Assembly: GCA_902493595.1 (NCBI GenBank)
Contig: CABUPU010000004.1
Span: 9,958-73,957 of the forward strand
Length of the DNA stretch: 64,000 bases
Reading direction: 5' to 3'
Origin: an uncultured Mycoplasma sp.
GTDB lineage: Bacteria > Bacillota_I > Bacilli_A > RF39 > UBA660
Both the position numbers and the translations under genes were made by a program. Under the pieces are notes generated by a model, which saw nothing but the letters and a program-made list of their open reading frames with translations, was not told the DNA's origin and did no database searches. How positions within the stretch are numbered: position 1 is the stretch's first letter; the number at the start of each line of letters is the position of its first letter. Shown here one piece after another: positions 5,637-40,732 of this stretch.

Positions 5637-7082
5637 TTAAACTTGATTTATAAGATTAATTAGGCTATTAACTCTATTTAATATTTTTTCTTGTTCTTCA
5701 AATGGAGGCAAAGGAATATACATATTTTTTAAAATATCAAATGGTGGAATATTCTTTATAGCTGTTCCCTTACCTTTTTCATTTGCCTCTTTTTTTAATA
5801 CATAATCAAAATATAATAAGAAGAAGTCTCTATAATTATTATCAAATAAAGTGATTTTCATAAGTGCTTGATTAATAATACCTACTCTAGCTTCTTTTGG
5901 CATTACATATGTTTCGCCAATTGTTCCAGCACATGATACTATTATATCATTTGGTTCTACAGAAAAAGATTTCATAGATTCATATTTTTTTCTAGAAATA
6001 TAATAATCTCCCAATGTGTAATCTTTTTTTATTGCATTTTGCTGCTCATAAACTTTAATTGCATCTTCACTATATGGAATAAACATAGATTTAGTTAAAG
6101 AACTTCCAAAAGGGCCTTTTTTATATATACCTATATTACCCAATCTAACCCATATCCAATTTTGAGGAATAGAATATGGAACATTATTTGAATTTATTTC
6201 CATTACTTTTTTATCTTTCTTTAAATTATGTCCATTTCTAAATTCACTTTCTATTTTAAAAACATCAATTTGTTTATCTAATGGATTATTCTTTATTAAT
6301 TCACCGTGAATAGCTTTATCAAATATAAGTATTTTCAGTTTTTCTTTTAATTTTTGAACTCTACCAATACTCTTTTCCAATTCATTTATTAATTCAAATG
6401 TTTTATCAATCTTTTCACATAATTCTTTTTGATATTCAATATCAGGAATGCAAATTGGAGTATTAATAATTATTTCTCGAGATATATTAGGTTGTGCTCC
6501 TCCAATGCCCGCATTAATAAAATAATCCCTTAATGATAATAAATAATAAAATAAATATTTTGATTCTATACCATAATATATATTACAAGAACAACATGCT
6601 TGATTAGTAGTTAATTCAATTTCTGATATTCCTAGTTTTCCAATTGTTGCACCATACATAGCAATCATAACATCACCGGGATGAACAAATTTTAAAGAAC
6701 ACTCTTTTAATGCTTTTTCAGTAATTTTTTCTTCAGTATTATTTATATATCCATCATTGAGTTCACCAGTTTTAAGCCATGCTATAGTACCATTATTATA
6801 ATATTCTTCATTACTTCTCAATGGAGTTGCACCTGCACCCCAACTTCCAATATTTCCTAGTCTATCCCATACCCAATTTGTTGGAGATTTATATATTTTT
6901 TCATCATCAGTTATATCTTCATCTAATTTATCTTTCTTTATTTTTTTCTGATTAATGAGATCATTTCTTATTCCATCATATTTTTCTTTAATATCTGAAG
7001 ATAGCTGTTTTCCATCATTTGGTAATAATTGACCACTAAAGGCCATCTGAAGAATCTTTTTTCTTAGCTTACTTACATTCAT
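5637..7082 (-). CDS. hsdS: Type I restriction-modification specificity subunit
   Basis: 481 aa with two similar halves (NWVWDRLGNIGSW.. and NWIWVRLGNIGIY..) separated by coiled-coil spacers, typical of the two target-recognition domains (TRDs). Stop and start are coupled to hsdM. Confidence 0.9.
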   Translation of the reverse strand: MNVSKLRKKILQMAFSGQLLPNDGKQLSSDIKEKYDGIRNDLINQKKIKKDKLDEDITDDEKIYKSPTNWVWDRLGNIGSWGAGATPLRSNEEYYNNGTIAWLKTGELNDGYINNTEEKITEKALKECSLKFVHPGDVMIAMYGATIGKLGISEIELTTNQACCSCNIYYGIESKYLFYYLLSLRDYFINAGIGGAQPNISREIIINTPICIPDIEYQKELCEKIDKTFELINELEKSIGRVQKLKEKLKILIFDKAIHGELIKNNPLDKQIDVFKIESEFRNGHNLKKDKKVMEINSNNVPYSIPQNWIWVRLGNIGIYKKGPFGSSLTKSMFIPYSEDAIKVYEQQNAIKKDYTLGDYYISRKKYESMKSFSVEPNDIIVSCAGTIGETYVMPKEARVGIINQALMKITLFDNNYRDFFLLYFDYVLKKEANEKGKGTAIKNIPPFDILKNMYIPLPPFEEQEKILNRVNSLINLINQV

Positions 7083-20388: not shown

Positions 20389-20454
20389 ACTAAATCTCTC
20401 CTTAATTAAAAAATAAAAATAATATCTTAATAAGCCATGTTCTGTACCATTACT

Positions 20455-20762
20455 GGTGACAAACATTTATCTATGTACAAAGTACATCTAGTCTTAGGTT
20501 CGTTTTCCCTTGACCAGCTCCCCTACCAAAATTTGGGTTTCTCACTCGCGGGGTTTACCACGTTCCACTTCTTTTATTTCTAAAAGACTCGTCTCTTTGG
20601 CACTTTTATACCTAATCATTTCATTTTCAGAAATTTTCGGAGCCGTTAGCATATGCTACCTTAAGTTATTTATTCCTTAAGCACGAACATATTATCCATC
20701 ACAGGATAAGTGAGCATGGACTTTCCTCAATAAAACTAAAAGTCTTACAGCGTTTGTCTAAA
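20455..20762 (-). ncRNA. rnpB: RNase P RNA (bacterial, compact Firmicutes/type B-like)
   Basis: Minus strand contains GAGGAAAGTCCATGCTC (the universally conserved CR-I/P4 strand), GTGGAACGTGGTAAACCCCGCGAGTGAGAAACCC, and ACGAACCTAAGAC (the P4 3' strand). Candidate P1 pairing is GACAAAC (20752-20758) with GTTTGTC (20458-20464). Ends are approximate. Confidence 0.85.
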
Positions 20763-20766
20763 GATA

Positions 20767-29364: not shown

Positions 29365-29452
29365 TGGTGCTTGTAATCGGGGTCGAACCGATACTTTCTT
29401 TTGGAAAAATAGATTTTGAGTCTATCGCGTCTACCAATTCCGCCATACAAGC
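29365..29452 (-). tRNA. tRNA-Leu (anticodon CAA)
   Basis: Manual cloverleaf: acceptor GCTTGTA/TACAAGC, anticodon arm ATAGA-CTCAAAA-TCTAT, long variable arm, T arm ATCGG-TTCGACC-CCGAT, encoded CCA. A terminator hairpin follows. Confidence 0.9.
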
Positions 29453-29479: not shown

Positions 29480-30838
29480 TTATTGTTTTTTCAAATAATC
29501 TAAAACAATTTCTTTATCATCTAGGTGATGTTTTTCATGTCCTATAATTTGATAATCTTCATGCCCTTTACCAAGAATTAATAAAGTATCATTTTTATTA
29601 AGCATTTCTAACCCTTTATTAATAGCTTCTTTTCTATCAAAGATTATTTCATAATTTGTTTTATGAACACCACTTATTATATTATCCATAATTATTTTAG
29701 GGTCTTCAGTACGAGGATTATCATTAGTAAATATTACATAATCACTTTTTTGGGTAGCAACATTTCCCATAATAGGTCTTTTTTTAGGATCTCTATCTCC
29801 ACCACAACCTACAATAGTAATTATTTTACCTTTTTTATTTTCTAAAAAAGAATTAATTATTTTTTCAACAGCATCTGGTGTATGAGCATAGTCAATAACT
29901 GCCTCAGCATCACGTACTTTAATTTGTTCACATCTTCCCTTCGGAGGAAAAACATCTTTAGTTATATCAAATATTTTTTGAATATCTATTCCATAAGTAT
30001 TAATTATGGCTAGTGCCGTCATATAGTTATAAACATTAAATTTACCCCTTAAATTAGTTGTAACACTTAAATTTTTTTCATGATATTTAAAATTAATTAT
30101 TGTACCACTATCAGTACTTTCATAACTTTTTACTTCATAATCAGATTTAGTAAATCCAATTGTTTTATAATTTTTCTTTTCAAAATACTTACCATATTCA
30201 TCATCATTATTAACAATAATTGTACCAGTGTCCTTTAGGTAATCTAAAATTAAAAGTTTTGCTTTTAAATAATTTTCCATAGTTTTATGATAATCTAAAT
30301 GATCCTCGGTAAGATTTGTAAATGCCTCAATAGTAAAAGATAAACCTTCGACTCTTTTAAAAGATAAAGCATGTGATGAAACCTCCATTACAACAGCTTT
30401 GCAGCCCTTTTCAAGAGCAGTAGTTAGCATTGAATAAATCTCAGTTATCTCAGGAGTTGTATTAGGTAATTCATAAACTTCATTCTCTATATAAAAACCA
30501 ATTGTACCAATATAAGCAGTTTTAATTCCAAGTTTATTAAGCATTTGATAAGTTAAAAAACAAGTAGTTGTTTTACCATTTGTACCAGTTACACCAATAA
30601 TATCAAGTTTATTAACAATATCCTTATAATTATCAACAATATATTTTTGTAAATACTCTTTTGTATCAGGAACAACAATTGTTTCAACGTTATAACTTCC
30701 ATGTTCACATACTATTTTTGATGCACCATTTTCAATTGCTTTTTCAATATAATCGTGTCCATCAACAGTATTTCCCTTTATAGCAATAAAAGTATCACCT
30801 TTTTTAACTTTTCTTGAATCAGTTTTAATATTTATCAT
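29480..30838 (-). CDS. murE: UDP-N-acetylmuramoyl-L-alanyl-D-glutamate ligase MurE (DNPR motif suggests meso-DAP-adding)
   Basis: GVTGTNGKTT P-loop, Mur ligase domains, and TNDNPRTEDP. Confidence 0.9.
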   Translation of the reverse strand: MINIKTDSRKVKKGDTFIAIKGNTVDGHDYIEKAIENGASKIVCEHGSYNVETIVVPDTKEYLQKYIVDNYKDIVNKLDIIGVTGTNGKTTTCFLTYQMLNKLGIKTAYIGTIGFYIENEVYELPNTTPEITEIYSMLTTALEKGCKAVVMEVSSHALSFKRVEGLSFTIEAFTNLTEDHLDYHKTMENYLKAKLLILDYLKDTGTIIVNNDDEYGKYFEKKNYKTIGFTKSDYEVKSYESTDSGTIINFKYHEKNLSVTTNLRGKFNVYNYMTALAIINTYGIDIQKIFDITKDVFPPKGRCEQIKVRDAEAVIDYAHTPDAVEKIINSFLENKKGKIITIVGCGGDRDPKKRPIMGNVATQKSDYVIFTNDNPRTEDPKIIMDNIISGVHKTNYEIIFDRKEAINKGLEMLNKNDTLLILGKGHEDYQIIGHEKHHLDDKEIVLDYLKKQ

Positions 30839-30850
30839 AATTAATCCTTT

Positions 30851-32671
30851 CTATATTTCATTAAAATATATGTCGTACCACACTAAAAATGTGTATATTG
30901 TCCAAACCTTTTTATATGAATCTCTTTTACCATTTTTATGTTCTTCGAGAAGTTTATTAATTTTTTTTGTATCAAAAAATAATTTTGCACTTTCTCCATT
31001 AAATTTTTCTTTAATTATATTATATAACTTATCAGTTTTAATCCACTCTCTCAAAGGAACAGGAAACCCAAGCTTTTTCTTTTTATATGCTTCATTAGGT
31101 ATTACCTTCGAAGCGGCTTTTCTAAGAGCAACCTTTGTAGTTTCTTTATTTATTTTTGCATAAGTAGGTAAAGATTTTGCAACTTCATAAACTTTATTAT
31201 CTAGAAATGGAGTTCTTGCCTCAAGGCCAAACATCATTGTATTTCTATCTACTGCATGTAAAAAATCATTTACTAACCAATAATAATAATCAATCATTTG
31301 TCTTTGAATTAATGTAGAATTATCTTTATATCTATCATAAATATTCTTTACAATATCTTTTGTATTTATTTGATTTGGAATTTTAACAATACTTTGTGCT
31401 TCTTTATCACGAAATACTCTTCCTAAACCAATGTTATAATTTTCTAACTTTTGTCCTCTTCGATAAAGAAAATTAAAACCTCTTATATCTGGAAAAATAC
31501 TCACAATATTTGAGACAATATGTCTTAAAAAATAAGGTAATTTCATATATCCTTGCATAGTAAGTTCCTCTTGGTAAGAGTTATAACCTGCAAAAAATTC
31601 ATCTGCTCCTTCACCAGAAAGAACAACTTTTACCTCTTTCGAAGCTATTTCTGACACAAAATATAAAGCAATTGCTGATGGGTCCGCTAAAGGTTCATCC
31701 ATATAATACATAATTTTAGGAAAAGATTCTATATATTCATCCATAGTAATTTTCTTTGAATAATTTTCAATACCTAACTTATCAGATAAATCTTTTGCAT
31801 AACTAATTTCATCAAATTTTGGATTATCATATCCAACGGTAAACGTTTTATCTGGTTTTGCAAGTGAAACTATATACGAAGAATCTATTCCACTTGATAA
31901 AAATGAACCTACTTCAACATCACTTATTTGATGATATTCAACTGAATTTTTCATTGCTTTATCAATATTATCAACAATTTTATCCATATCATCATTTTTT
32001 TCTTTAAATTCTAGTGTAAAGAAACTTTTTGTTTTAATCTTACCATCTTTATAAATTAAATAGGTTCCTGGGTCAAGTCTATATACCCCTTTGAAAAAGG
32101 TTTCTGATGTTGGAACAGAGTTAAAACATAAATATGCAGATAATATATCAGTATTTAGTTTTTTTTCAAAATCTGGATTTGCTAAAAATGCTTTTGGTTC
32201 TGAGGCAAACATAAATGTATCATTAAATTTTGCATAATAAAGTGGTTTAATACCAAAACCATCTCTTGCCATAAATAATTCATTTTTATTTTTATCCCAT
32301 ATTGCAAAAGAAAACATACCTCTTAAATGATTTGGAAGTTTTTCACCCCACTGTTCATAACCATGAAGTATTACTTCAGTATCAGTTTTTGTTTTAAAAA
32401 CATGTTTCTTTTTTAATAAAGCGTCTTTTAATTCCTTAAAATTATAAACTTCTCCATTATAAATAATAACCTTACTTTTATCTTCATTATATATTGGTTG
32501 TGCACCAGTATTTAAATCAATTATTGCAAGTCTACGATGAGCAAGTGCACAATTATCATCAATATAAAAACCTTCACCATCTGGACCACGATGCTCAATT
32601 TTTTTTGACATATCTTTAATTATTTTCTCTTTGTTTTCTTTATTATTTACAAATCCTACGATTCCACACAT
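30851..32671 (-). CDS. asnB: Asparagine synthase (glutamine-hydrolysing)
   Basis: N-terminal MCGIVGF nucleophile and synthetase-domain SSGIDSS PP-loop. Confidence 0.9.
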   Translation of the reverse strand: MCGIVGFVNNKENKEKIIKDMSKKIEHRGPDGEGFYIDDNCALAHRRLAIIDLNTGAQPIYNEDKSKVIIYNGEVYNFKELKDALLKKKHVFKTKTDTEVILHGYEQWGEKLPNHLRGMFSFAIWDKNKNELFMARDGFGIKPLYYAKFNDTFMFASEPKAFLANPDFEKKLNTDILSAYLCFNSVPTSETFFKGVYRLDPGTYLIYKDGKIKTKSFFTLEFKEKNDDMDKIVDNIDKAMKNSVEYHQISDVEVGSFLSSGIDSSYIVSLAKPDKTFTVGYDNPKFDEISYAKDLSDKLGIENYSKKITMDEYIESFPKIMYYMDEPLADPSAIALYFVSEIASKEVKVVLSGEGADEFFAGYNSYQEELTMQGYMKLPYFLRHIVSNIVSIFPDIRGFNFLYRRGQKLENYNIGLGRVFRDKEAQSIVKIPNQINTKDIVKNIYDRYKDNSTLIQRQMIDYYYWLVNDFLHAVDRNTMMFGLEARTPFLDNKVYEVAKSLPTYAKINKETTKVALRKAASKVIPNEAYKKKKLGFPVPLREWIKTDKLYNIIKEKFNGESAKLFFDTKKINKLLEEHKNGKRDSYKKVWTIYTFLVWYDIYFNEI

Positions 32672-32686
32672 ACTATCACCTTCTTG

Positions 32687-33250
32687 TTAGTTTTCTTTAT
32701 ATGTACTTTTATATAAATCTACTTCTTCATTTGAATTTTCTTTATTAAATTTAATTTCTGGTAAATCACTTAATGATGCAAGTCCAAAATAATCTAAAAA
32801 TTCTCTTGTTGTTTTATATAAATTTGGATGTCCTGGTAAATCAGACTTTCCACATACTTTAATTAAGTCTTTTGCCATTAATTTTTTTATCATAAAAGAT
32901 GAAGAAATTCCTCTTAAATTGTCTACACCAGTTCTAGTAATTGGTTCATTATATGCAATAATTGCAAGTGTTTCAAGTGCTGCTTGAGATAATGTTTCAG
33001 TTCCTGAAGTATCCTTAATTAGTTTTTGATAATACTCAATATGCTCTTTTTTAGTCGTTAATTTAAAAGAGTTAGATAAATAACTTATTCGAATACCTCT
33101 TTCAGCTTTTTCATATTCTTTCTGTAAATCATTTAAAAGTTTTCTAGCTTCTTTTTCATCAATTTCCAAAACTTCACAAATTTTTTCTAAAGTAATACCT
33201 TCATCTCCGACCACAAATAGTATTCCCTCTAAAACTGCTAATTTATTCAT
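32687..33250 (-). CDS. scpB: Segregation and condensation protein B
   Basis: ScpB-like winged-helix repeats. The ATG at 33250 (GAGG RBS) overlaps the scpA stop as ATGAATAA. Confidence 0.85.
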   Translation of the reverse strand: MNKLAVLEGILFVVGDEGITLEKICEVLEIDEKEARKLLNDLQKEYEKAERGIRISYLSNSFKLTTKKEHIEYYQKLIKDTSGTETLSQAALETLAIIAYNEPITRTGVDNLRGISSSFMIKKLMAKDLIKVCGKSDLPGHPNLYKTTREFLDYFGLASLSDLPEIKFNKENSNEEVDLYKSTYKEN

Positions 33251-33959
33251 TATATACCTCAACATATATTTTACTAAAATTTTTGTTTTGTGACAAGGTT
33301 ATCAAATTATCTTTACTCATTTCTAAAATACTTAAAAAAGTAACAACAATTTCCTCTTTTGTACATTCATTAAAAAGCCTAGTAAACTCAACCTTTTTTT
33401 CTCTACTCAAAATATCTTTTATATAATTAATTTTATCTTTAACACTAATTTCTTTTCTAGCAATTTTTGTATTTCTTGGTTTTTTATACTCTAATCTTTC
33501 GGATATTTCAAGCATTGCATTAACAAGATCCTCTAAAGAAACATCATCACTTAAATAAGTTTCATTATTAGCATATTCCTTTAAACTTTCTGGTACTTTT
33601 GTAAAATAATCTTGTCTATTTTTTTCAAGTTCACGAAAATCATTAGTAATAGTTTGATATTTTTCATATTCAATTAATCTATTACGTAAATCTTCTTCAC
33701 TATTAATTTCATAATTATCATCGTCTTCTTCTTCATCAAAACCTAATATAATTTTACTTTTTAAATGTATTAGTTCTGATGCCATAACTAAATACTCACT
33801 TTTATTATCTAAATCATTTTTATCAAGTGAGTTTATAAAGTTGATGTATTCATCTATTATTATCTTTAAATCTATTTCATATATGTCAAGTTCATGTTTT
33901 TTAACCATATGAAGCATTAAATCTAAAGGTCCTGTAAAATCTTTAATATTAAAATTCAT
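33243..33959 (-). CDS. scpA: Segregation and condensation protein A (kleisin)
   Basis: FTGPLDLMLHMVKKHELDIYEIDL N-terminus, typical of ScpA. Confidence 0.85.
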   Translation of the reverse strand: MNFNIKDFTGPLDLMLHMVKKHELDIYEIDLKIIIDEYINFINSLDKNDLDNKSEYLVMASELIHLKSKIILGFDEEEDDDNYEINSEEDLRNRLIEYEKYQTITNDFRELEKNRQDYFTKVPESLKEYANNETYLSDDVSLEDLVNAMLEISERLEYKKPRNTKIARKEISVKDKINYIKDILSREKKVEFTRLFNECTKEEIVVTFLSILEMSKDNLITLSQNKNFSKIYVEVYNE

Positions 33960-33970
33960 TTTTCTCCTTA

Positions 33971-34906
33971 CTAACTACAAGTAAAGAATTCAGCGGTCAT
34001 TTCATAATTAATTTTAATTGGACTTACTCCTTTACTATAGTAATAAATATTATCAATTTTTGTATCACCGGCATTATAATCCATAGTTAATCTATATCTA
34101 AATCCATTAGTTATTTCAGTTACTGTTGCAGTAACACCTGACTTACCTTCAAAAGATGCTGCTAAAGTAGTGTATTCATTAAATAAGTTTGCATAATTTA
34201 CATTATCATTAGTAACTATTATAGTATCTTCATATTTAAATAACTTATCATTTTCAAAAAAATATATAATTGATTCGCCATTATTATTTTTACAAGTCAT
34301 CGCAGATTTATTTTCACTATCAACATCAAGGCTAATTAAATCATAATCACTTTCCTCGAGTTTAGCAATATTATACTTTGTTGGAGTAACACTTAACTGA
34401 TATGAAAAGTTTTTATTAGATTTATTAGTAATAATACCATTAATTTTAATTACAGAAATTTGAGAATTACTGTCATCATATAGTCTAATAAAATATGAAT
34501 CATTTGTTAAATTAAGTTCTTTATCTGCATTATTGTTAACTAAAAAACTTAGTGTTCCAGCATCAAAACTAATATTAGTAAATGTAGTTTCATTTAACTT
34601 TACTTCATTATTTGTAAATGCATAAATAGTATTTTTACTATTTTCGGTAACATTTGTTGTGGTGTTAGTCCCATTTTCAGTACCATTTGTAGTGTTATTA
34701 TTTACTACATAATTATTCGTAAAGGCTTTATTATATAAATAATCACGATATGCTTTTTGAATATCAGGTAAGAAATAAATTACCACAATAAAAATAATAA
34801 ATAAAAAAAGTGTTCCAATCCAACCATATTTTTTTGTATCAGTTCTTCCTATTGTAACTGATTGTAAAGGATTTGTATCTATATTAACTTTTCTTCTTCT
34901 AGCCAA
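33971..34906 (-). CDS. Hypothetical membrane-anchored protein (N/T-rich linker), first gene of the scpAB operon
   Basis: TTG start with AGGAGGG RBS and one N-terminal TM helix. No motif recognised. Confidence 0.6.
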   Translation of the reverse strand: MARRRKVNIDTNPLQSVTIGRTDTKKYGWIGTLFLFIIFIVVIYFLPDIQKAYRDYLYNKAFTNNYVVNNNTTNGTENGTNTTTNVTENSKNTIYAFTNNEVKLNETTFTNISFDAGTLSFLVNNNADKELNLTNDSYFIRLYDDSNSQISVIKINGIITNKSNKNFSYQLSVTPTKYNIAKLEESDYDLISLDVDSENKSAMTCKNNNGESIIYFFENDKLFKYEDTIIVTNDNVNYANLFNEYTTLAASFEGKSGVTATVTEITNGFRYRLTMDYNAGDTKIDNIYYYSKGVSPIKINYEMTAEFFTCS

Positions 34907-34969
34907 GTTATTCCCTCCTACTCTTCATAATAATTATACTATATTTGCAAATATAAAACAAGAAAAGTA

Positions 34970-34998
34970 TTGCACTTTAATTTAATTATTGTTATAAT
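34970..34998 (+). promoter_or_regulatory. Sigma-A-type promoter for tRNA-Met
   Basis: TTGCAC - 17 nt - TATAAT with a TG extension (TGTTATAAT). Confidence 0.55.
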
Positions 34999-35028
34999 AT
35001 ATCTAGTTTTGTTGAAGCAAAACGTTTT

Positions 35029-35105
35029 GGCGGGGTATATCAACTGGCTAGATAGTTCGGTTCATACCCGAAATGTTGGGGGTTCGAGTCCCTCCCCCGC
35101 TACCA
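35029..35105 (+). tRNA. tRNA-Met (anticodon CAT; elongator or Ile2-lysidine type, not initiator-like)
   Basis: Manual cloverleaf: D arm TATC/GATA, anticodon arm TTCGG-TTCATAC-CCGAA, T arm GGGGG-TTCGAGT-CCCTC, encoded CCA, and a G1-U72 wobble. Two terminator hairpins follow. Confidence 0.88.
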
Positions 35106-35233
35106 AATAAATTTATGTCAAACATTAATGTTTGACTTTAATAAATAACTAATTCTAGTAAGGGTTAGTTTTTTTATACTATTAAAACTGTTTAAAAATC
35201 AATTAAGAAAAATAAATTTTTATTTAAAAAGTA

Positions 35234-35262
35234 TTGCATATTGTCAATAAATAGTGTATATT
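35234..35262 (+). promoter_or_regulatory. Promoter upstream of the Abi gene leader
   Basis: TTGCAT - 17 nt - TATATT. Confidence 0.5.
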
Positions 35263-35274
35263 ACTTATTGAGAT

Positions 35275-35314
35275 GTGCCTAGGAAACTTTAGAAGCCCTA
35301 GGTCTTTTTCATTT
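35275..35314 (+). repeat. 40-bp hairpin repeat, left copy (in the Abi leader)
   Basis: GTGCCTAGGAAACTTTAGAAGCCCTAGGTCTTTTTCATTT matches 36250-36289 at 39/40 positions. It forms CCTAGG..CCTAGG stems followed by a U-run. Confidence 0.85.
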
Positions 35315-35328
35315 TATAGGAGGTAAAA

Positions 35329-36216
35329 ATGGCTAAAGAATTTAAATCAACAAATGAATTATTAGAAATAATTAATTCAAAAGGTTTATTAGTAAAAGAT
35401 AATAATAATTTCAGATATCTAATTGGAAAGTACTCATATTATTCAATAGTAAATACTTATAAGCTGATATTTAAAATTGGAAATAACTATAAAAATAACG
35501 CTTCGTTCGAAGAAATATTTGCAATGTATAAGTTTGATAAGAACTTAAAAATAATAATGCTTAAATATATTCTTGAAATTGAAGCTGTTATTAAAACAAA
35601 AATTGCTAATCTATTTGCTGAAAAGTATGGATTAGAAGATTATTTAAATATTAACAATTTTGATTTAAAAGATGATAATTCTAATTTAGAACATATAGAA
35701 AAATTAATTGAAGAAATAAAAAATGAAATTGATAAAGGAAATGGTAAACATGATGCAATAACTCATTATATGAATAAGTATGGATTTGTTCCACCTTGGG
35801 TTGTTACTAAAATATTATCTCTTGGAACTATTAGTAAATTTTATGGTTTAATGAAACAACAAGATAGACAAGAAATAAGTAAGCAATTTCATATAAATGA
35901 TAGAATATTAAAAAATATTCTTGGTAATTTAACATCAGTTCGTAATATAGCAGCTCACGATGATAGATTATATACCTATAGAAGTACTTTCTATATTAGA
36001 TTAGACAAAACTAAAAAATCACCAGATAAAGTATTACATACAAATATGTATATAATAATTAAATCGTTGGAATTATTATTAGAAAACGATCAAGCAATTG
36101 AAATGAAAAACTTAATTATAAAGGAATTAGATATATTAAAAAATAGTTTAACTTCAATAAAAATTGATGAAGTATTAAAGGTAATGGGATTCGATAAGAA
36201 CTATTACACTGCATAA
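35329..36216 (+). CDS. Abi_2 (AbiD/AbiF-like) abortive-infection protein, HEPN-type Rx4H motif
   Basis: 295 aa. The N-terminus is typical of AbiD/F proteins and the RNIAAH motif (SVRNIAAHDDRLY) is present. RBS AGGAGGT. Confidence 0.75.
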   Translation: MAKEFKSTNELLEIINSKGLLVKDNNNFRYLIGKYSYYSIVNTYKLIFKIGNNYKNNASFEEIFAMYKFDKNLKIIMLKYILEIEAVIKTKIANLFAEKYGLEDYLNINNFDLKDDNSNLEHIEKLIEEIKNEIDKGNGKHDAITHYMNKYGFVPPWVVTKILSLGTISKFYGLMKQQDRQEISKQFHINDRILKNILGNLTSVRNIAAHDDRLYTYRSTFYIRLDKTKKSPDKVLHTNMYIIIKSLELLLENDQAIEMKNLIIKELDILKNSLTSIKIDEVLKVMGFDKNYYTA

Positions 36217-36249
36217 ATATTGATTCACAGCATATAATAATAATGAAAA

Positions 36250-36289
36250 GTGCCTAGGAAACTTTAGAAGCCCTAGGCCTTTTTCATTT
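36250..36289 (+). repeat. 40-bp hairpin repeat, right copy (Abi terminator)
   Basis: See 35275-35314. This copy has the fully paired stem (C instead of T). Confidence 0.85.
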
Positions 36290-36590
36290 ATCTCATTATA
36301 AAAGTAATGATAAACATGATGAAAAATGAATACTAATATAAGATTAATTGTTTATGAAATATTTTTGAAGTTTCAAACATACAACGTATTTGTACGGAAT
36401 AAATATTTAATAGATAGAAATATCTATTTTTTTTTAAACAAAATAAAGTGTTCAGTCAAGAACACTTTTTTAGAGGTGATTATTTATAATAAATAATCCA
36501 ATATAATTTTAGCATGTTTTTCTATAAACCTCAACGAACAAGTGAGTATAATTTTACTTAATTAATGAGAAAATAATATTAGAAAGACTG

Positions 36591-36848
36591 GTGAGCATAT
36601 TGCATAATAAAAATGATGAAAATTATATTTATTATTTAGTTGCTCACAACCTAAAATCTATTAGAAAGAAAAAAGGATTTACTCAAGCTAAATTTGCAGA
36701 ACTTTGTAATTATAGTGAAGGATTTATAATGAATATTGAAAGTAATAAATATTTACAAACATTTAGTTTAGGAACACTTTGGAAGTTTGCCCAAGTTTTA
36801 GAAATTGATATACGAGAGTTATTTATACCAATTGATGATAATAAATAA
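36591..36848 (+). CDS. XRE-family HTH protein
   Basis: HTH KKGFTQAKFAELCNYSEGFIMNIESNK. Non-ATG start (GTG 36591 or TTG 36600). Confidence 0.65.
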   Translation: MSILHNKNDENYIYYLVAHNLKSIRKKKGFTQAKFAELCNYSEGFIMNIESNKYLQTFSLGTLWKFAQVLEIDIRELFIPIDDNK

Positions 36849-36938
36849 CTTTTTTTCATTTGTAGACAAAACATAAAATATATGATATAATCTATTTGTT
36901 TTTGAAAAACTTTTAAAAATAAGAAAGAAGGATTTTAT

Positions 36939-38612
36939 ATGAAAAATGAAATAGAGGAAACATCTATAGTTGCTTTAGGTGGCCTTGGAGAAGTTGGAAA
37001 AAACATGTATGTCATTACTCATAAAGATGAAATAATTATAATAGATTGTGGAGTTCTTTTCCCTGAGGATGACTTACTTGGAATAGATTATGTTATACAA
37101 GATTATACATATCTTAAACAAAATGAAAGCAAAATTAAAGCATTAATAATAACACATGGTCATGAAGATCATATTGGAGGAATTCCATTTTTACTTCAAA
37201 GTGTAAATATTCCTGTTATTTATGCTCCGAAAATTGCTACAGATTTAATTAATAAAAAACTTGAGGAAAGAAATATTAATTACAAAAATATTGAACTAAT
37301 AAATAAAGACTTAGTTTTAGAGTATAAATATTTTAAAATTGAATTTGTTAATACTACTCACTCAATACCAGATAGTTTTGCAATATGTATTCATACACCA
37401 AATGGAACGATTTTTGAAACTGGAGATTTTAAATTTGATTTAACCCCAATTGGACCAATGGCAGATATTCATAAAATGGCTAAAATTGGTGCTGAAGGTG
37501 TAACACTACTTTTAAGTGATTCAACCAATGCTCTATCCGAAGGTTATTCAAAAAGTGAATCATCAGTTGATGGAACTTTAAATGATATTATATCAAGACA
37601 TCACGGAAGAGTTATAATTGCAACATTTGCCTCAAATATATTTAGAATTAAACATATAGTTGAAACTTGTAAGCAATACGGAAGAAAAATAATTGTCTTT
37701 GGAAGAAGTATGGAAAATGCAATCGAACTTGCTAGTAATAATGGTCTTATCGAAGATAAAAGTATATTTATAGATGCATATCAAGCAAAAAGTTTAAAAA
37801 GAAATGAAGTATGTATATTATGTACTGGTACTCAAGGAGAACCTCTTGCGGCTTTATCAAGAATAGCTAATGGTGTTCATAAACAAATATCATTATTAAA
37901 TGATGATTTAGTAATATTTTCATCAAGTGCTATACCAGGTAATGCAAATAGTATAAATAAAATTATTAATAAACTTTATTTAAAAGGTGTAAGAGTATTT
38001 ACTAATACTGAATTTAGTGATATACATACATCTGGTCATGCTAAAGAAGAAGAACTTAAATGGATGCTTAGAATTATTAAACCAGCTTATTTTATGCCAA
38101 TGCATGGTGAATACAGAATGCTTAAAAAACATGCTGAAATTGCTAAAATGTGTGATGTTGAAAATTCTTTAATTTGTGAAAATGGTAATGTTGTAAAAAT
38201 GCTTAATGGAAAAGTGTATAAAGATGGTAATGTTATATCTGGCGATGTTTATGTTGATGGATCAAGAGTTGGTGATGTAGGCTCTGTAGTTATAAAGGAT
38301 AGAAAACTTATGAGTCATGACGGTATTTTAATCACTATTTTAAATATTAATACTTTAACAAGAAAATTATTAATAAAACCAAATGTTACTGCGCGTGGAT
38401 TTGTTACAATAAATGAAAATATTGAATTAATTAATAAAATAGAAAATAAAATTTCTGATATTACAAATAATTACCTAGCAAAATCAATTTATAGTTATAC
38501 TGATTTAAAAAATCAAATCATTTTAGAGGTTCTTCCATATATTAATGAACTTACAGGAAGAAGACCAATTATATTACCTGTAATTATGGAAGTTAATCAA
38601 TCTATATATTAA
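36939..38612 (+). CDS. rnj: Ribonuclease J
   Basis: Metallo-beta-lactamase HGHEDHIGG plus beta-CASP and a C-terminal domain; 557 aa. Confidence 0.9.
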   Translation: MKNEIEETSIVALGGLGEVGKNMYVITHKDEIIIIDCGVLFPEDDLLGIDYVIQDYTYLKQNESKIKALIITHGHEDHIGGIPFLLQSVNIPVIYAPKIATDLINKKLEERNINYKNIELINKDLVLEYKYFKIEFVNTTHSIPDSFAICIHTPNGTIFETGDFKFDLTPIGPMADIHKMAKIGAEGVTLLLSDSTNALSEGYSKSESSVDGTLNDIISRHHGRVIIATFASNIFRIKHIVETCKQYGRKIIVFGRSMENAIELASNNGLIEDKSIFIDAYQAKSLKRNEVCILCTGTQGEPLAALSRIANGVHKQISLLNDDLVIFSSSAIPGNANSINKIINKLYLKGVRVFTNTEFSDIHTSGHAKEEELKWMLRIIKPAYFMPMHGEYRMLKKHAEIAKMCDVENSLICENGNVVKMLNGKVYKDGNVISGDVYVDGSRVGDVGSVVIKDRKLMSHDGILITILNINTLTRKLLIKPNVTARGFVTINENIELINKIENKISDITNNYLAKSIYSYTDLKNQIILEVLPYINELTGRRPIILPVIMEVNQSIY

Positions 38613-38644
38613 AAAAACTGCAATAATCATATTGCAATTTTTTT
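38611..38644. terminator. Bidirectional terminator between rnj and the JAB gene
   Basis: TGCAAT-aatcat-ATTGCA flanked by A7 and T7 runs. Confidence 0.6.
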
Positions 38645-39152
38645 ATAGGTATTTTTCTAATTGTTCATTTTGACTATAGAATCTATCAAAGGTTAAATAC
38701 TTTGCTCCATCTTTTATTAATACCTGTGGTTTTTGAACCTCTCTACTTTTAAAAACAGTTTCACAATTTAAAGTAAAATATTTTGGACTAAATATCATAC
38801 AAATTTTATCACTTGCCCAATGTTTTTCTAATACATTTCTATCAGTTTCAGAAAATACACTAGTATATTGTCCATGTGAATGATAACAGCCAATAACTTC
38901 GAGGTTTTTAGATTTAGCAAAATTTAATGCTCTTGACTCATAAAAAAGTGGAAACATAAATTCATTTGCAGAACCAACTAAATCTTTTTCATAATACATT
39001 TGTGTAACATAAAAATATTTAAGCCCATCCTTTTCTATCATACTACCTAAAAGATAACCTCCACATTCGTGAAATTCATCCATAAATGCGTGATTTATAA
39101 TAGCATCAGACACATTTAAATTCATAATAACAATTGATTTTTGTGTTTCCAT
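38643..39152 (-). CDS. Stand-alone JAB/MPN (JAMM) metalloprotease-domain protein
   Basis: Conserved Glu (HECGGYLLG) and JAMM motif HSHGQYTSVFSETD. Sits 26 nt downstream of rny. Confidence 0.7.
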   Translation of the reverse strand: METQKSIVIMNLNVSDAIINHAFMDEFHECGGYLLGSMIEKDGLKYFYVTQMYYEKDLVGSANEFMFPLFYESRALNFAKSKNLEVIGCYHSHGQYTSVFSETDRNVLEKHWASDKICMIFSPKYFTLNCETVFKSREVQKPQVLIKDGAKYLTFDRFYSQNEQLEKYL

Positions 39153-39178
39153 AATATCCTTTCAAAAAGAAGAAGTCA

Positions 39179-40732
39179 TTATTTTGCTTCTTCTTGTGCT
39201 CTTGTTTCCCTAATAACAGTAATTTTAATTGTACCAGGATATTGCATTTCTTTTTCAATTTTATCTTTCATATCTCTAGCAATTTTAAAACTTGTTAAAT
39301 CATCAACTTCATTAGGTTTAACCATAACTCTAACTTCTCTTCCTGCTTGCATTGCATATGTTTTTTCAACACCTTCGAAAGAGTTTCCAATACTTTCTAA
39401 TTGTTCAAGTCTTTTTATATAATTTTCAACTGAATCATTTCTTGCACCAGGTCTTGCAGCACTTAAAGTGTCCGCTACTGCGACAAGGTTGGCAATTACA
39501 GTTTTTGCTTCTTTTGCACCATGATGAGAAACTATTGCATCAAGTACTGTTTCATTTTCATGATATTTTTTAGCAATATCATATCCAATATCAACATGAG
39601 AACCCTCAACTTCAAAATCTATTGCTTTACCAATATCATGTAAAAGTCCCGCTCTTTTAGCAAGTGAAATATTTTCACCAAGTTCTGATGCCATAAGTCC
39701 ACATAGATTAGCAACCTCGATTGAATGCTTTAATGCATTTTGTCCATAACTAGTACGATAATTTAATTTACCAATTAAATGTAATAGTTCTGGATCCATC
39801 TTAGTAAGACCAAGTTCATTCATTGTCTTATTACCAAGTTCAGTTATTTTACTATCAATATCCCTTACAGTTTTATCATATACTTCCTCGATTCTTGCAG
39901 GATGTATACGGCCATCTTTAATAAGTGTCTCAATAGTAATTTTAGCTATTTCTCTACGAAGTGGATCAAATGATGATATAACAATAGCTTCAGGAGTATC
40001 ATCAATTATTAAATCAACTCCAGTAATAGATTCAATTGTACGAATATTTCTTCCTTCACGGCCAATTAAACGACCTTTCATTTCATCATTAGGAAGTTCA
40101 ATTGTACTAACTGTCTGAAGACCTACAACATCATCAGCATATCTTTCCATTGAACCAACAATTAATTGTTTTGCTTTTTCATTTGCCTCAAGTTTTGCTT
40201 TTGCAGTTTCTTCGGAAATATACTCTGCTATTTCCTTACTCATATCAGCCTCAACTCTAGACATAATTTGTTTTCTAGCATTGTCTTTACTTAAGCCAGA
40301 TATTTTTTCTAATTTTTCAATTTCCTCTTTTAAAAGAGTATCCATTTTATCCTCTTTTTCTTGGATAGTTTGATTTCTTAAATTTAGAGAGTTTTCTTTT
40401 GCATCTAAAGACGAATCTCTTTTCTGAAGCATTTCTTCTCTCTTATCAAGATTATTTTCTCTACTAATTAAACGATTTTCAGTTTCTTTAAGTTCTGCTT
40501 TTTTTTCTTTTATTTCAGCATCCGTTTGTTGTTTTAATTTAAAACTTTCTTCTTTAAGTTCCAAAAGAGCATCTCTTTTTTGTTTGTCTGCTTCTTTTTT
40601 AGCTTCATCAATTAGTTTAATAGCTTTATTAGTGCGTTTTTTATTTATAATATAATAAATTACAAATACTATTGCACCACCAATTATTAATCCAATAACT
40701 AGAGTTAAAATGGAAGTTGTAGTTAATTCCAT
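39179..40732 (-). CDS. rny: Ribonuclease Y
   Basis: N-terminal TM helix, coiled coil, KH domain (GREGRNIR) and HD domain (LLHDIGK). The ATG at 40732 has a GTGAGGA RBS; the track GTG start is at 40744. Confidence 0.9.
   Translation of the reverse strand: MELTTTSILTLVIGLIIGGAIVFVIYYIINKKRTNKAIKLIDEAKKEADKQKRDALLELKEESFKLKQQTDAEIKEKKAELKETENRLISRENNLDKREEMLQKRDSSLDAKENSLNLRNQTIQEKEDKMDTLLKEEIEKLEKISGLSKDNARKQIMSRVEADMSKEIAEYISEETAKAKLEANEKAKQLIVGSMERYADDVVGLQTVSTIELPNDEMKGRLIGREGRNIRTIESITGVDLIIDDTPEAIVISSFDPLRREIAKITIETLIKDGRIHPARIEEVYDKTVRDIDSKITELGNKTMNELGLTKMDPELLHLIGKLNYRTSYGQNALKHSIEVANLCGLMASELGENISLAKRAGLLHDIGKAIDFEVEGSHVDIGYDIAKKYHENETVLDAIVSHHGAKEAKTVIANLVAVADTLSAARPGARNDSVENYIKRLEQLESIGNSFEGVEKTYAMQAGREVRVMVKPNEVDDLTSFKIARDMKDKIEKEMQYPGTIKITVIRETRAQEEAK

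What the first reader, a model, noticed from the sequence alone, without database searches (positions are those of the whole stretch)
35234..36289. Abi_2/HEPN abortive-infection gene bracketed by a 40-bp terminator-like hairpin repeat, one copy inside its own 5' leader
GTGCCTAGGAAACTTTAGAAGCCCTAGG(T/C)CTTTTTCATTT occurs at 35275-35314 and 36250-36289 (39/40 identical). Each copy folds as a GCCUAGG..CCUAGG(C/U) stem followed by a U-run.

The downstream copy is the gene's terminator. The upstream copy lies between a good promoter (TTGCAT-17-TATATT, 35234-35262) and the RBS (AGGAGGT, ~35319). Transcription therefore has to read through a terminator-like structure to express a potentially toxic HEPN protein. 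The leader copy carries the weaker G-U variant of the stem.

This looks like an attenuator or kill-switch arrangement. At the same time it forms the direct repeats of a one-gene cassette parked next to tRNA-Met.
Basis: partly seen in the sequence, partly recalled or inferred. Interest (0 to 1): 0.5.

Follow-up and report, generated by a model that had tools for sequence, protein, structure and literature searches.

The report
AbiF toxin flanked by antitoxin-like RNA hairpins
The repeated hairpin is real and is most likely a small antitoxin-type RNA that sits on both sides of an AbiF-family phage-defence toxin gene: a new RNA motif and gene layout for a toxin–antitoxin type first characterised in 2025.

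Summary
The 40-nt repeat is real (39/40 identical; 49 nt at 92%). The gene between the copies is an Abi_2/AbiD/AbiF HEPN protein, and its model matches only PbAbiF (8VZ6, TM 0.79).

The hairpin is more than a terminator. In Abi_2 loci chosen by protein similarity alone (48–100% identity), both copies are kept. All 7 stem pairs show compensatory changes, 99% of cells are paired, and the apical AAACUUUnGAAG is invariant.

The upstream copy starts at the predicted start of a conserved promoter. A U-run and the RBS follow it. The downstream copy has its own near-perfect TATAAT at a fixed 6-nt distance. In distant clades a separate terminator follows it.

This fits the AbiF–ncRNA type III toxin–antitoxin system (RCd22/AbiFr, 2025). 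However, the RNA does not match Rfam abiF (RF03085), and the copies flank the toxin instead of lying in tandem upstream.

A genome of the same species (Mycoplasma sp. CAG:472) lacks exactly the 975 bp between the repeats. Such solo promoter–hairpin units are common (61 in species-representative genomes). The tRNA-Met adjacency is incidental.

Verdict: observation confirmed, interpretation partly supported, new variant of a known kind. RNA expression, termination and toxin neutralisation are inferred, not tested.

The parts
35234..35262 (+). Promoter P1: -35 TTGCAT (35234-35239), 17-nt spacer, -10 TATATT (35257-35262). The predicted start is G35270, 7 nt after the -10.
   Evidence: Read from the sequence. 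It was not called by the consensus scan. The same -35/-10 pair, 6-7 nt from the conserved 'GA', is present upstream of all homologous abi genes.
35270..35315 (+). Upstream (leader) copy of the hairpin RNA: 5'-GAGAUGU, stem 35277-35283 / 35297-35303, apical AAACUUUAGAAG 35284-35295, bulged C35296, then CUUUUUCAUUUU. Predicted short RNA of about 45 nt and a leaky terminator.
   Evidence: Fold. Covariation on 54 distinct homologues: 7/7 stem pairs with changes on both sides, 99.1% of cells paired, 0/500 shuffles reach this. The U-rich tail is conserved in all clades. Expression and termination are inferred.
35318..35323 (+). Ribosome-binding site AGGAGG, 5 nt before the ATG.
   Evidence: Sequence. 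Present in homologous loci.
35329..36216 (+). abi gene: 295-aa Abi_2/AbiD/AbiF-family HEPN protein (RNIAAH motif at residues 205-210). Predicted RNase toxin.
   Evidence: Pfam PF07751 E 2.5e-45. PADLOC AbiD E 5.3e-55. phmmer against 8VZ6_A E 6.4e-18 over the full length. AF2 pLDDT 91.9, and Foldseek's only significant PDB hit is 8vz6_A with TM 0.79. R205, N206 and H210 are invariant in 46 homologues.
36209..36238 (+). Promoter-like P2, overlapping the end of abi: CTGCAT (36209-36214), 18-nt spacer, perfect -10 TATAAT (36233-36238), 6 nt before G36245.
   Evidence: Sequence. In relatives the -10 scores 5.6-5.95 of 6 at a fixed 6-nt gap before the downstream copy in both close and distant clades; the -35 is weak. 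Promoter activity is inferred.
36245..36289 (+). Downstream copy of the hairpin RNA: 5'-GAAAAGU, stem 36252-36258 / 36272-36278, apical AAACUUUAGAAG 36259-36270, bulged C36271, then CUUUUUCAUUU. Predicted second small-RNA gene that also ends the abi transcript.
   Evidence: In clades below 60% identity the same element is followed by GUCGUCAAAA or GUCAUUCA plus a separate terminator hairpin.
35266..35314 (+). Left arm of the 49-nt direct repeat (its partner is 36241-36289). Recombination between the arms removes abi and leaves one promoter-hairpin unit.
   Evidence: FR899425.1 (L064) has one unit that aligns to both arms and lacks the 975 bp in between.
36290..36437 (+). Tentative: decayed copy of a third conserved non-coding element that follows the downstream hairpin in many relatives. 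It ends in a terminator-like hairpin, ATAGATAGAAATATCTAT + T9 (36411-36437).
   Evidence: A conserved element follows the hairpin in 31 loci. The window's similarity to it is weak (alignment score 100 against shuffles 79.6 +/- 7.5, maximum 99). No Rfam match.

Best explanation
This is an AbiF-type RNA-protein (type III-like) toxin-antitoxin and abortive-infection module with an unusual layout.

Proposed mechanism:
- The 295-aa Abi_2/HEPN protein is the toxin, a predicted RNase.
- The conserved hairpin (5'-GAnnnGU, 7-bp stem, apical AAACUUUnGAAG, then C) is its cognate small RNA.
- Promoter P1 starts transcription at the 'GA' about 7 nt before the stem. Most transcripts are expected to stop at the hairpin plus U-run, giving a short RNA of about 45 nt. 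Occasional read-through reaches the RBS and abi.
- A second copy, directly after the stop codon, has its own -10 box. It is expected to give the same RNA independently and also to end the abi mRNA.
- By analogy with RCd22/AbiFr, the RNA is expected to bind the AbiF dimer, one RNA per monomer, and keep it inactive until infection or stress disturbs the balance.
- Because the two RNA genes are direct repeats, recombination between them deletes the toxin and keeps one antitoxin gene. This explains the frequent solo promoter-hairpin units.

Shown here: the repeat, the structure conserved by covariation, the promoter geometry, the protein family and fold, and the presence/absence polymorphism.

Inferred: transcription of both units, termination and read-through, RNA-protein binding, and toxicity.
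For: Protein:
- Abi_2 and AbiD.
- Full-length homology to PbAbiF 8VZ6.
- AF2 model with pLDDT 91.9 whose only significant PDB match is 'PbAbiF dimer bound to ncRNA', TM 0.79.
- HEPN R-N-x3-H invariant in homologues.

RNA:
- In loci selected by protein only, both copies are present at 48-53% protein identity.
- Seven of 7 stem pairs show double-sided changes, 99.1% of cells are paired, no shuffle out of 500 reaches this, and slid controls give 13-59%.
- There are 41 G-U cells, so the structure is selected on the + strand.
- The apical 12 nt are invariant.

Transcription signals:
- The upstream copy has -35/-10 boxes 6-7 nt before the conserved GA.
- The downstream copy has TATAAT (5.6-5.95 of 6) at a fixed 6-nt gap.
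- A U-rich tail (8.4-8.6 U of 12) follows upstream copies in all clades. Downstream copies in distant clades have 3.8 U of 12 plus a separate terminator.

Precedent:
- RCd22 is an upstream ncRNA with hairpin motifs and a terminator. The short form is dominant, it neutralises AbiF in cis and trans, and compensatory stem mutations are tolerated (PMC12373285).
- The PbAbiF dimer binds two ncRNAs (PMC12737573, PMC13064643).

Loss by recombination: L064 and L038. There are 61 solo units, 60 of them with intact 7/7 stems. Free-standing promoter-hairpin-terminator units occur in L088.
Against: - There are no expression, termination, binding or toxicity data for this system.
- The RNA does not match the curated abiF motif RF03085, even at E<=10 on 67 nt. 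Its architecture differs too: a 5' AAA internal loop and a 1-nt 3' bulge, against a 1-nt 5' bulge and a 6-nt 3' loop in RF03085. Homology of the RNAs is therefore not shown.
- The -35 of P2 is weak, and in an AT-rich genome TATAAT-like hexamers are common. What argues for P2 is its fixed position.
- The hairpin plus U-run was not called as a terminator by the scan, because its loop exceeds 8 nt.
- The primary paper on PbAbiF (Cell 2025) could not be read, so similar layouts may already be described there.
Confidence: 0.7

Rival explanations
1. Purely cis-acting control. The leader hairpin is only a transcription attenuator or mRNA 5'-end stabiliser, and the downstream copy is only the gene's terminator. 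No trans-acting antitoxin RNA is involved.
For: Both window copies are a stem plus a U-run. The U-rich tail after the leader copy is conserved. AbiD1 is known to be controlled through its mRNA leader (PMC2661086, as summarised in PMC13064643).
Against: A terminator needs no invariant 12-nt apical sequence or conserved GA...GU flanks. Downstream copies in distant clades lack the U-run and are followed by a separate terminator. The downstream copy keeps a TATAAT at a fixed distance. Intact solo and free-standing units persist without any abi gene.
Confidence: 0.15
2. DNA-level element. The hairpins are recombination sites or ends of a small mobile cassette (integron attC-like, IS200/IS605-PATE-like or att sites) that moves the abi gene, and the RNA structure is incidental.
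For: The unit occurs in at least 52 different left-flank contexts. Presence or absence is exactly at the repeats. Both arms have the same orientation, like subterminal hairpins of IS200/IS605 elements (from general knowledge). One relative has an integrase 1.6 kb away (L018).
Against: No recombinase or transposase lies within 6 kb in ten copies of this locus. The 41 G-U pairs would be A-C mismatches on the other strand. The hairpin always sits at a fixed distance from promoter boxes and before the RBS. The deletion product is what plain homologous recombination between 49-nt repeats gives. A scan of viral contigs found no relatives.
Confidence: 0.08
3. Recent local duplication of an ordinary terminator, with no specific function.
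For: The two window copies are nearly identical (39/40), as expected after a recent duplication or gene conversion.
Against: The two-copy layout is kept in clades with only 48-53% protein identity, with the stems of both copies diverged and compensated.
Confidence: 0.02

Closest known systems
AbiF(Cd)-RCd22 of Clostridioides difficile prophage phi027/phiC2 (Saunier et al. 2025, PMC12373285)
   Same: Both have an Abi_2/AbiF HEPN toxin. In both, a sigma-A-type promoter drives a short structured RNA that begins a few nt before a hairpin motif, with a terminator before the toxin ORF and no separate toxin promoter. Both carry two copies of the hairpin motif per locus.
   Different: RCd22 carries two RF03085 motifs in tandem in one ~100-nt RNA, followed by a separate terminator, and has nothing downstream of abiF. 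Here there is one motif of a different consensus (no RF03085 match). The motif itself carries the U-run, and the second copy is a separate unit after the stop codon. The locus is chromosomal, not in a prophage lysis module. Protein identity to phiC2 AbiF is about 33% over 73% of the length.
PbAbiF-AbiFr (Prevotellaceae; PDB 8VZ6; Zilberzwige-Tal et al. 2025, read only through reviews PMC12737573 and PMC13064643)
   Same: Full-length sequence and fold match (E 6.4e-18; TM 0.79). The catalytic R/H residues align. The solved dimer binds two RNA copies, which fits two RNA genes per locus.
   Different: Protein identity is only about 19-25%. The AbiFr sequence could not be compared. AbiFr is described as encoded in cis upstream. 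No flanking layout is mentioned in the texts I could read.
Rfam RF03085 abiF RNA motif (Weinberg et al. 2017)
   Same: A hairpin of about 35 nt with a small inner helix, found next to Abi_2 genes.
   Different: The consensus CCCGCC-A-AGC-loop-GCU-CAAAUC-GGCGGG differs from GCCUAGG-AAA-CUU-UnG-AAG-C-CCUAGGY. The model does not score this hairpin at all. It also misses Abi_2 loci of three other phages, so it covers only part of the family.
Classical type III TA systems (ToxIN, AbiQ, CptIN, TenpIN)
   Same: An RNA antitoxin gene and a terminator precede a protein RNase toxin, and the terminator sets the RNA:toxin ratio. They act as abortive-infection systems.
   Different: Those toxins have the ToxN fold, not HEPN. 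Their antitoxin is a tandem array of 2-5.5 repeats cut by the toxin. Here two single units lie 975 nt apart and flank the toxin gene.

Membership tests
Abi_2 / AbiD-AbiF HEPN proteins | Match to the Abi_2 domain model (PF07751) above its curated cut-off | tested here: met
   155.5 bits against a cut-off of 25.6, E 2.5e-45, covering profile positions 4-183 of 184. PADLOC AbiD E 5.3e-55.
Abi_2 / AbiD-AbiF HEPN proteins | HEPN R-(N/H/D)-x3-H catalytic motif | tested here: met
   R205-N-I-A-A-H210. R205, N206 and H210 are invariant in 46 homologues. They align with TRNSCCH of 8VZ6_A.
Abi_2 / AbiD-AbiF HEPN proteins | Fold of a solved AbiF | tested here: met
   AF2 pLDDT 91.9, pTM 0.88. Foldseek against the PDB gives one hit with E<=0.001: 8vz6_A, TM 0.79/0.78, prob 1.00.
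AbiF-ncRNA type III-like toxin-antitoxin | Conserved structured ncRNA directly upstream of the toxin gene, under the only promoter | tested here: met
   A promoter plus hairpin precedes the RBS in all homologous loci. The structure is supported by covariation. Transcription itself was not observed.
AbiF-ncRNA type III-like toxin-antitoxin | Terminator between the ncRNA and the toxin ORF, with partial read-through | tested here: inconclusive
   A hairpin plus a conserved U-rich tail (8.4-8.6 U of 12) sits before the RBS. The consensus terminator scan did not call it. There are no transcript-end data.
AbiF-ncRNA type III-like toxin-antitoxin | RNA belongs to the curated abiF motif (Rfam RF03085) | tested here: not met
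   No match at E<=10 on 1351 nt or on 67 nt, nor in L185 or L059. Positive control: phiC2 RCd22 scores 37.6 bits.
AbiF-ncRNA type III-like toxin-antitoxin | RNA binds the toxin and neutralises it in cis and in trans | not testable with these tools
   This needs toxicity rescue, co-purification or EMSA, or RNA-protein complex modelling.
Classical type III TA (ToxIN/CptIN/TenpIN) | Tandem array of antitoxin repeats upstream of a ToxN-fold toxin | tested here: not met
   Only two copies, 975 nt apart, flank the gene. The protein is HEPN/AbiF.
Mobile cassette with dedicated recombinase (integron cassette, IS200/IS605-type PATE, integrative island) | Recombinase or transposase gene in or next to the unit | tested here: not met
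   None lies within +/-6 kb in ten copies of this locus or in the L011-L017 contexts. Only L018 has an integrase nearby.
Intrinsic (Rho-independent) terminator | G+C-rich stem directly followed by a U-run | tested here: met
   Both window copies have a 7-bp stem with 4-5 G-C pairs, then CUUUUUCAUUU. However, downstream copies in distant clades lack the U-run, so termination is not the conserved function of the hairpin.

The most novel reading that the evidence does not exclude
The promoter-hairpin units may be autonomous small-RNA genes that have a life of their own. After the toxin is lost, they would persist as orphan antitoxins that protect against incoming AbiF toxins. Because they flank the toxin as direct repeats, they would also serve as homology arms, so that abi (or another cargo) can be deleted from or re-inserted at any solo unit without a recombinase.

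A more speculative extension: a repeat-insert-repeat layout of Cas13-DR-sized hairpins bound by an AbiF dimer could be a step towards a CRISPR-like array. Saunier et al. speculated the same for tandem abiF motifs.
Probability: 0.2. Interest if true: 0.7.

Novelty: new variant of a known kind. Interest (0 to 1): 0.5.

Why it matters
AbiF-ncRNA systems were established only in 2025 and are proposed as the ancestors of Cas13, so their RNA partners are of direct interest.

This locus defines a second, well-supported RNA motif for the family that is absent from Rfam 15. The organisms carrying it are very common in the human gut: the exact protein is indexed in 831 blocks of the assembly collection.

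It also shows a different layout, with one RNA gene on each side of the toxin. That layout gives a simple route for losing a toxin safely, because the antitoxin is kept, and probably for regaining it.

The motif gives a ready search handle (GAnnnGU-stem-AAACUUUnGAAG-C-stem-C) for annotating such systems and their orphan RNAs in metagenomes. It also gives a small, tractable pair (a ~45-nt RNA and a 295-aa protein) for testing how AbiF recognises its RNA.

Tried and rejected
- **Rfam.** At gathering and at E<=10 thresholds there was no family for the hairpin or for the third element.
- **Viral contigs.** The IMG/VR scan with the protein alignment found no relatives, so there is no sign of a phage origin for this subfamily.
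- **tRNA targeting.** Rejected: about 5 of 157 hairpins lie within 400 nt of a tRNA, and two of those are this same locus.
- **CCTAGG as a restriction-type signal.** The site occurs only 4 times in the window, all in the hairpins. That is close to my own back-of-envelope composition estimate of about 2, so I dropped it.
- **G-U versus G-C closing pair as a 'weak leader / strong terminator' design.** Rejected: the closing pair is AU, GU or GC in both positions across relatives.
- **Integron or IS200/IS605-type mobilisation.** Considered because both hairpins have the same orientation. No recombinase was found, and the G-U pairs and promoter geometry argue for RNA.
- **Truly empty site.** I did not find a site with neither hairpin nor promoter, so the original insertion mechanism and the exact outer borders of the unit remain open.
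- **Primary PbAbiF paper.** The Cell 2025 paper is not held in the library.
- **Promoter/terminator scan.** It called neither P1 nor the hairpins. I relied on conservation instead.

Full report
**1. The observation**

The 40-nt sequence occurs at 35275-35314 and 36250-36289 with one difference (T/C at the stem's closing position). It occurs nowhere else in the window, and no shuffle gives a match. Ungapped extension gives a 49-nt repeat, 35266-35314 / 36241-36289, at 92% identity.

Both copies fold into a 7-bp stem (GCCUAGG/CCUAGGY) that encloses AAA, a 3-bp helix (CUU/AAG) with a UAG loop, and a bulged C. CUUUUUCAUUU follows. The energies are -13.3 kcal/mol (leader copy) and -18.9 kcal/mol (downstream copy, where AAUGAAAAG also pairs with the U-run).

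Between the copies lies a 295-aa ORF (35329-36216) with a good RBS (AGGAGG, 35318-35323). tRNA-Met is at 35029-35105. It is followed by two hairpins of its own.

The proposed promoter TTGCAT-17-TATATT (35234-35262) is present. It matches the consensus at only 8 of 12 positions and was not called by the scan.

**2. The protein**

- The ORF is an Abi_2 protein (PF07751, E 2.5e-45; PADLOC AbiD, E 5.3e-55).
- It aligns over its full length with the solved 'Abi family protein' 8VZ6_A (E 6.4e-18).
- An AlphaFold2 model built on 46 homologues (pLDDT 91.9) has one significant PDB neighbour: 8vz6_A, 'PbAbiF dimer bound to ncRNA', TM 0.79.
- The HEPN motif R205-N-I-A-A-H210 is invariant among homologues.

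**3. What the relatives show**

The exact protein is indexed in 831 blocks of the assembly collection (24 contigs read). In all ten places shown it has the same synteny, and both hairpins are nearly invariant.

Homologues at 84, 79, 75 and 71% identity sit between quite different housekeeping genes: ZnuA|SufC, FtsX|serpin, glycosyltransferases|SIR2, and near an integrase. All four carry the same promoter and leader hairpin. Three of the four also carry the downstream hairpin; the 75% homologue (L017) lacks it.

A pattern scan of one genome per species found 116 stretches. Nearly all are in uncultured gut Bacilli, 'Tenericutes' or CAG genomes, with a few records titled Muribaculaceae, Agathobacter or Eubacteriales.

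Because that scan was biased by the pattern, I also fetched loci by protein similarity alone. In Abi_2 genes only 48-53% identical to the window's, both the upstream and the downstream hairpin are present. Their stems have diverged, for example:
- ACUCAGG/CCUGAGU
- ACUCAAG/CUUGAGU
- AUCCAGG/CCUGGGU
- ACUUAGA/UCUAAGU
- ACUUAUG/CAUAAGU
- AUUUAGG/CUUAAAU

The apical AAACUUUnGAAG is unchanged.

On 54 distinct sequences:
- All seven outer pairs show changes on both sides.
- 99.1% of cells are paired.
- None of 500 shuffles reaches the observed values.
- Sliding the partner by 1-3 columns drops pairing to 13-59%.
- Forty-one cells are G-U, which would be A-C on the other strand. The structure is therefore selected on the + strand, that is, as RNA.

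**4. Signals around the two copies**

Upstream copies:
- They are preceded by -35/-10 boxes (-10 TATATT or TATAAA).
- The -10 ends 6-7 nt before a conserved 'GA', so the conserved block starts at the predicted transcription start (G35270 in the window).
- A U-rich tail follows in every clade (8.4-8.6 U in 12 nt), then the RBS.

Downstream copies:
- They are preceded by a near-perfect TATAAT (5.6-5.95 of 6) at a fixed 6-nt distance from their 'GA' in both close and distant clades. In the window this is TATAAT 36233-36238 and G36245. The -35 is weak.
- In the window's clade the U-run follows (9.2 U of 12).
- In clades below 60% identity the tail is GUCGUCAAAA or GUCAUUCA (3.8 U of 12), and a separate, variable terminator hairpin follows.

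So the hairpin is not conserved because it terminates. The downstream copy looks like a small-RNA gene of its own. Free-standing promoter-hairpin(-terminator) units without any abi gene exist, for example two in tandem in L088.

**5. Comparison with what is known**

Saunier et al. 2025 (PMC12373285) showed the following for C. difficile AbiF:
- An upstream ncRNA, RCd22, carries two abiF motifs (Rfam RF03085) and ends in a terminator.
- The short form dominates, and read-through gives abiF mRNA.
- The RNA neutralises the toxin in cis and in trans by direct binding.
- Stem-breaking mutations abolish this, and compensatory ones restore it.

Reviews report that the PbAbiF dimer binds two copies of its ncRNA, AbiFr, and that AbiF is regarded as a type III toxin (PMC12737573, PMC13064643).

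The window's module has the same logic. However, its RNA is not RF03085. The model gives no hit on the window's hairpin even at E<=10 on 67 nt, although it finds RCd22 in phage phiC2 at 37.6 bits.

The two motifs also differ in architecture. RF03085 reads CCCGCC-A-AGC-loop-GCU-CAAAUC-GGCGGG. The window's motif reads GCCUAGG-AAA-CUU-UnG-AAG-C-CCUAGGY.

RF03085 also fails on Abi_2 loci of three other phages, so it covers only part of the family.

The layout differs too: one unit on each side of the toxin, rather than two motifs in tandem upstream. I found no description of this layout in the papers I could read. The primary PbAbiF paper was not available.

**6. The 'cassette' aspect**

FR899425.1 (titled Mycoplasma sp. 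CAG:472; L064) matches the window at 98.7% (30499-35314) and 97.0% (36241-39493). Its single 49-nt unit aligns to both repeat arms, so it lacks exactly the 975 bp with abi. The same relation holds between L038 (Coprobacillus sp. CAG:605) and L011.

The solo unit keeps P1 on its left and the downstream flank on its right. This is what homologous recombination between the repeats would leave.

Among species-representative genomes I counted 61 solo hairpins, 60 of them with all seven pairs intact. This compares with 44 leader and 42 downstream copies next to abi. Several abi pseudogenes were also seen.

Full and solo units occur in at least 52 different left-flank contexts. Only about 5 of 157 hairpins are within 400 nt of a tRNA, so the tRNA-Met neighbour is incidental. 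No recombinase lies near this locus.

How the unit first reaches a new site remains open.

**7. Verdict**

These readings are not supported:
- 'terminator repeat';
- a weaker G-U leader variant;
- a tRNA-parked cassette with insertion repeats.

The best explanation is an AbiF-type RNA-protein toxin-antitoxin module with a new RNA motif and a flanking two-gene RNA layout (confidence about 0.7).

Expression of the RNAs, termination, binding and toxicity are all inferred, not shown.

Noticed in passing
L095:193-330 and 30 other loci (e.g. L125, L030, L100); window 36290-36437 may be a decayed copy: A third conserved non-coding element directly follows the (downstream or solo) hairpin. It has an extended -10 promoter-like TGGTATAAT, then about 75 conserved nt (GGTTATAGAATTAAATTGTTTATTTATTTGTTGTGATGGTTTCGGACTATCTTAACTATCGCACCA), then TCGAACT and a variable terminator-like hairpin. 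It is shared by loci with different outer flanks. There is no Rfam match, and only a weak predicted structure.
   Followed up: partly
L111:134-171 and the ORF 24 nt downstream: A variant of the same hairpin (GAGCCTAGGAAACTTTAGAAGCCCTAGG) precedes a DUF3800 protein (PF12686, E 4.4e-12) instead of an Abi_2 protein. DUF3800 genes are known to associate with many unrelated RNA motifs (PMC5737381).
   Followed up: partly
L017:4840-5000 and 5904-5935: In the 75%-identical homologue the downstream hairpin copy is missing. Instead, a different terminator-like sequence (CTAGAAATAGTTAGTTTTTTGTTAT) is duplicated on both sides of the promoter-hairpin-abi unit.
   Followed up: no
L088:4460-4690: Two free-standing promoter+hairpin units of two different subtypes lie in tandem about 112 nt apart. 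The second has its own terminator, and there is no abi gene nearby.
   Followed up: partly
L089:7085-7170; L022, L061, L074, L105, L108: A second, apparently degraded abi start follows directly after the downstream hairpin (tandem cassette remnant). Several other loci have abi genes truncated to 67-119 aa behind an intact leader hairpin.
   Followed up: no
L058:1895-3400 (also L068, L076): A 416-aa protein with no Pfam family lies behind a leader-type promoter+hairpin. A decayed hairpin copy follows it, which suggests a different cargo in the same frame.
   Followed up: partly
window 36591-36848; L101: An 85-aa XRE-type HTH protein follows the module in the window. A similar 88-aa HTH ORF follows the unit in L101. 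It is retained in the abi-less strain L064, so it is probably not part of the module.
   Followed up: no
window 35278, 35297, 36253, 36272: The palindrome CCTAGG occurs only four times in the 64-kb window, all inside the two hairpins. This is roughly what my own composition estimate predicts.
   Followed up: partly
L219:279-352 (Enterococcus phage vB_EfaS_IME197): A distant Abi_2 gene in this phage also lies about 150 nt downstream of a tRNA gene and a terminator-like hairpin. There is no RF03085 match near it.
   Followed up: no
window 20426-20765 and 29365-29452: RNase P RNA class B (261.9 bits) and tRNA-Leu(caa). This is consistent with a low-GC (about 25%) Bacilli/Mollicutes-type genome.
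   Followed up: no
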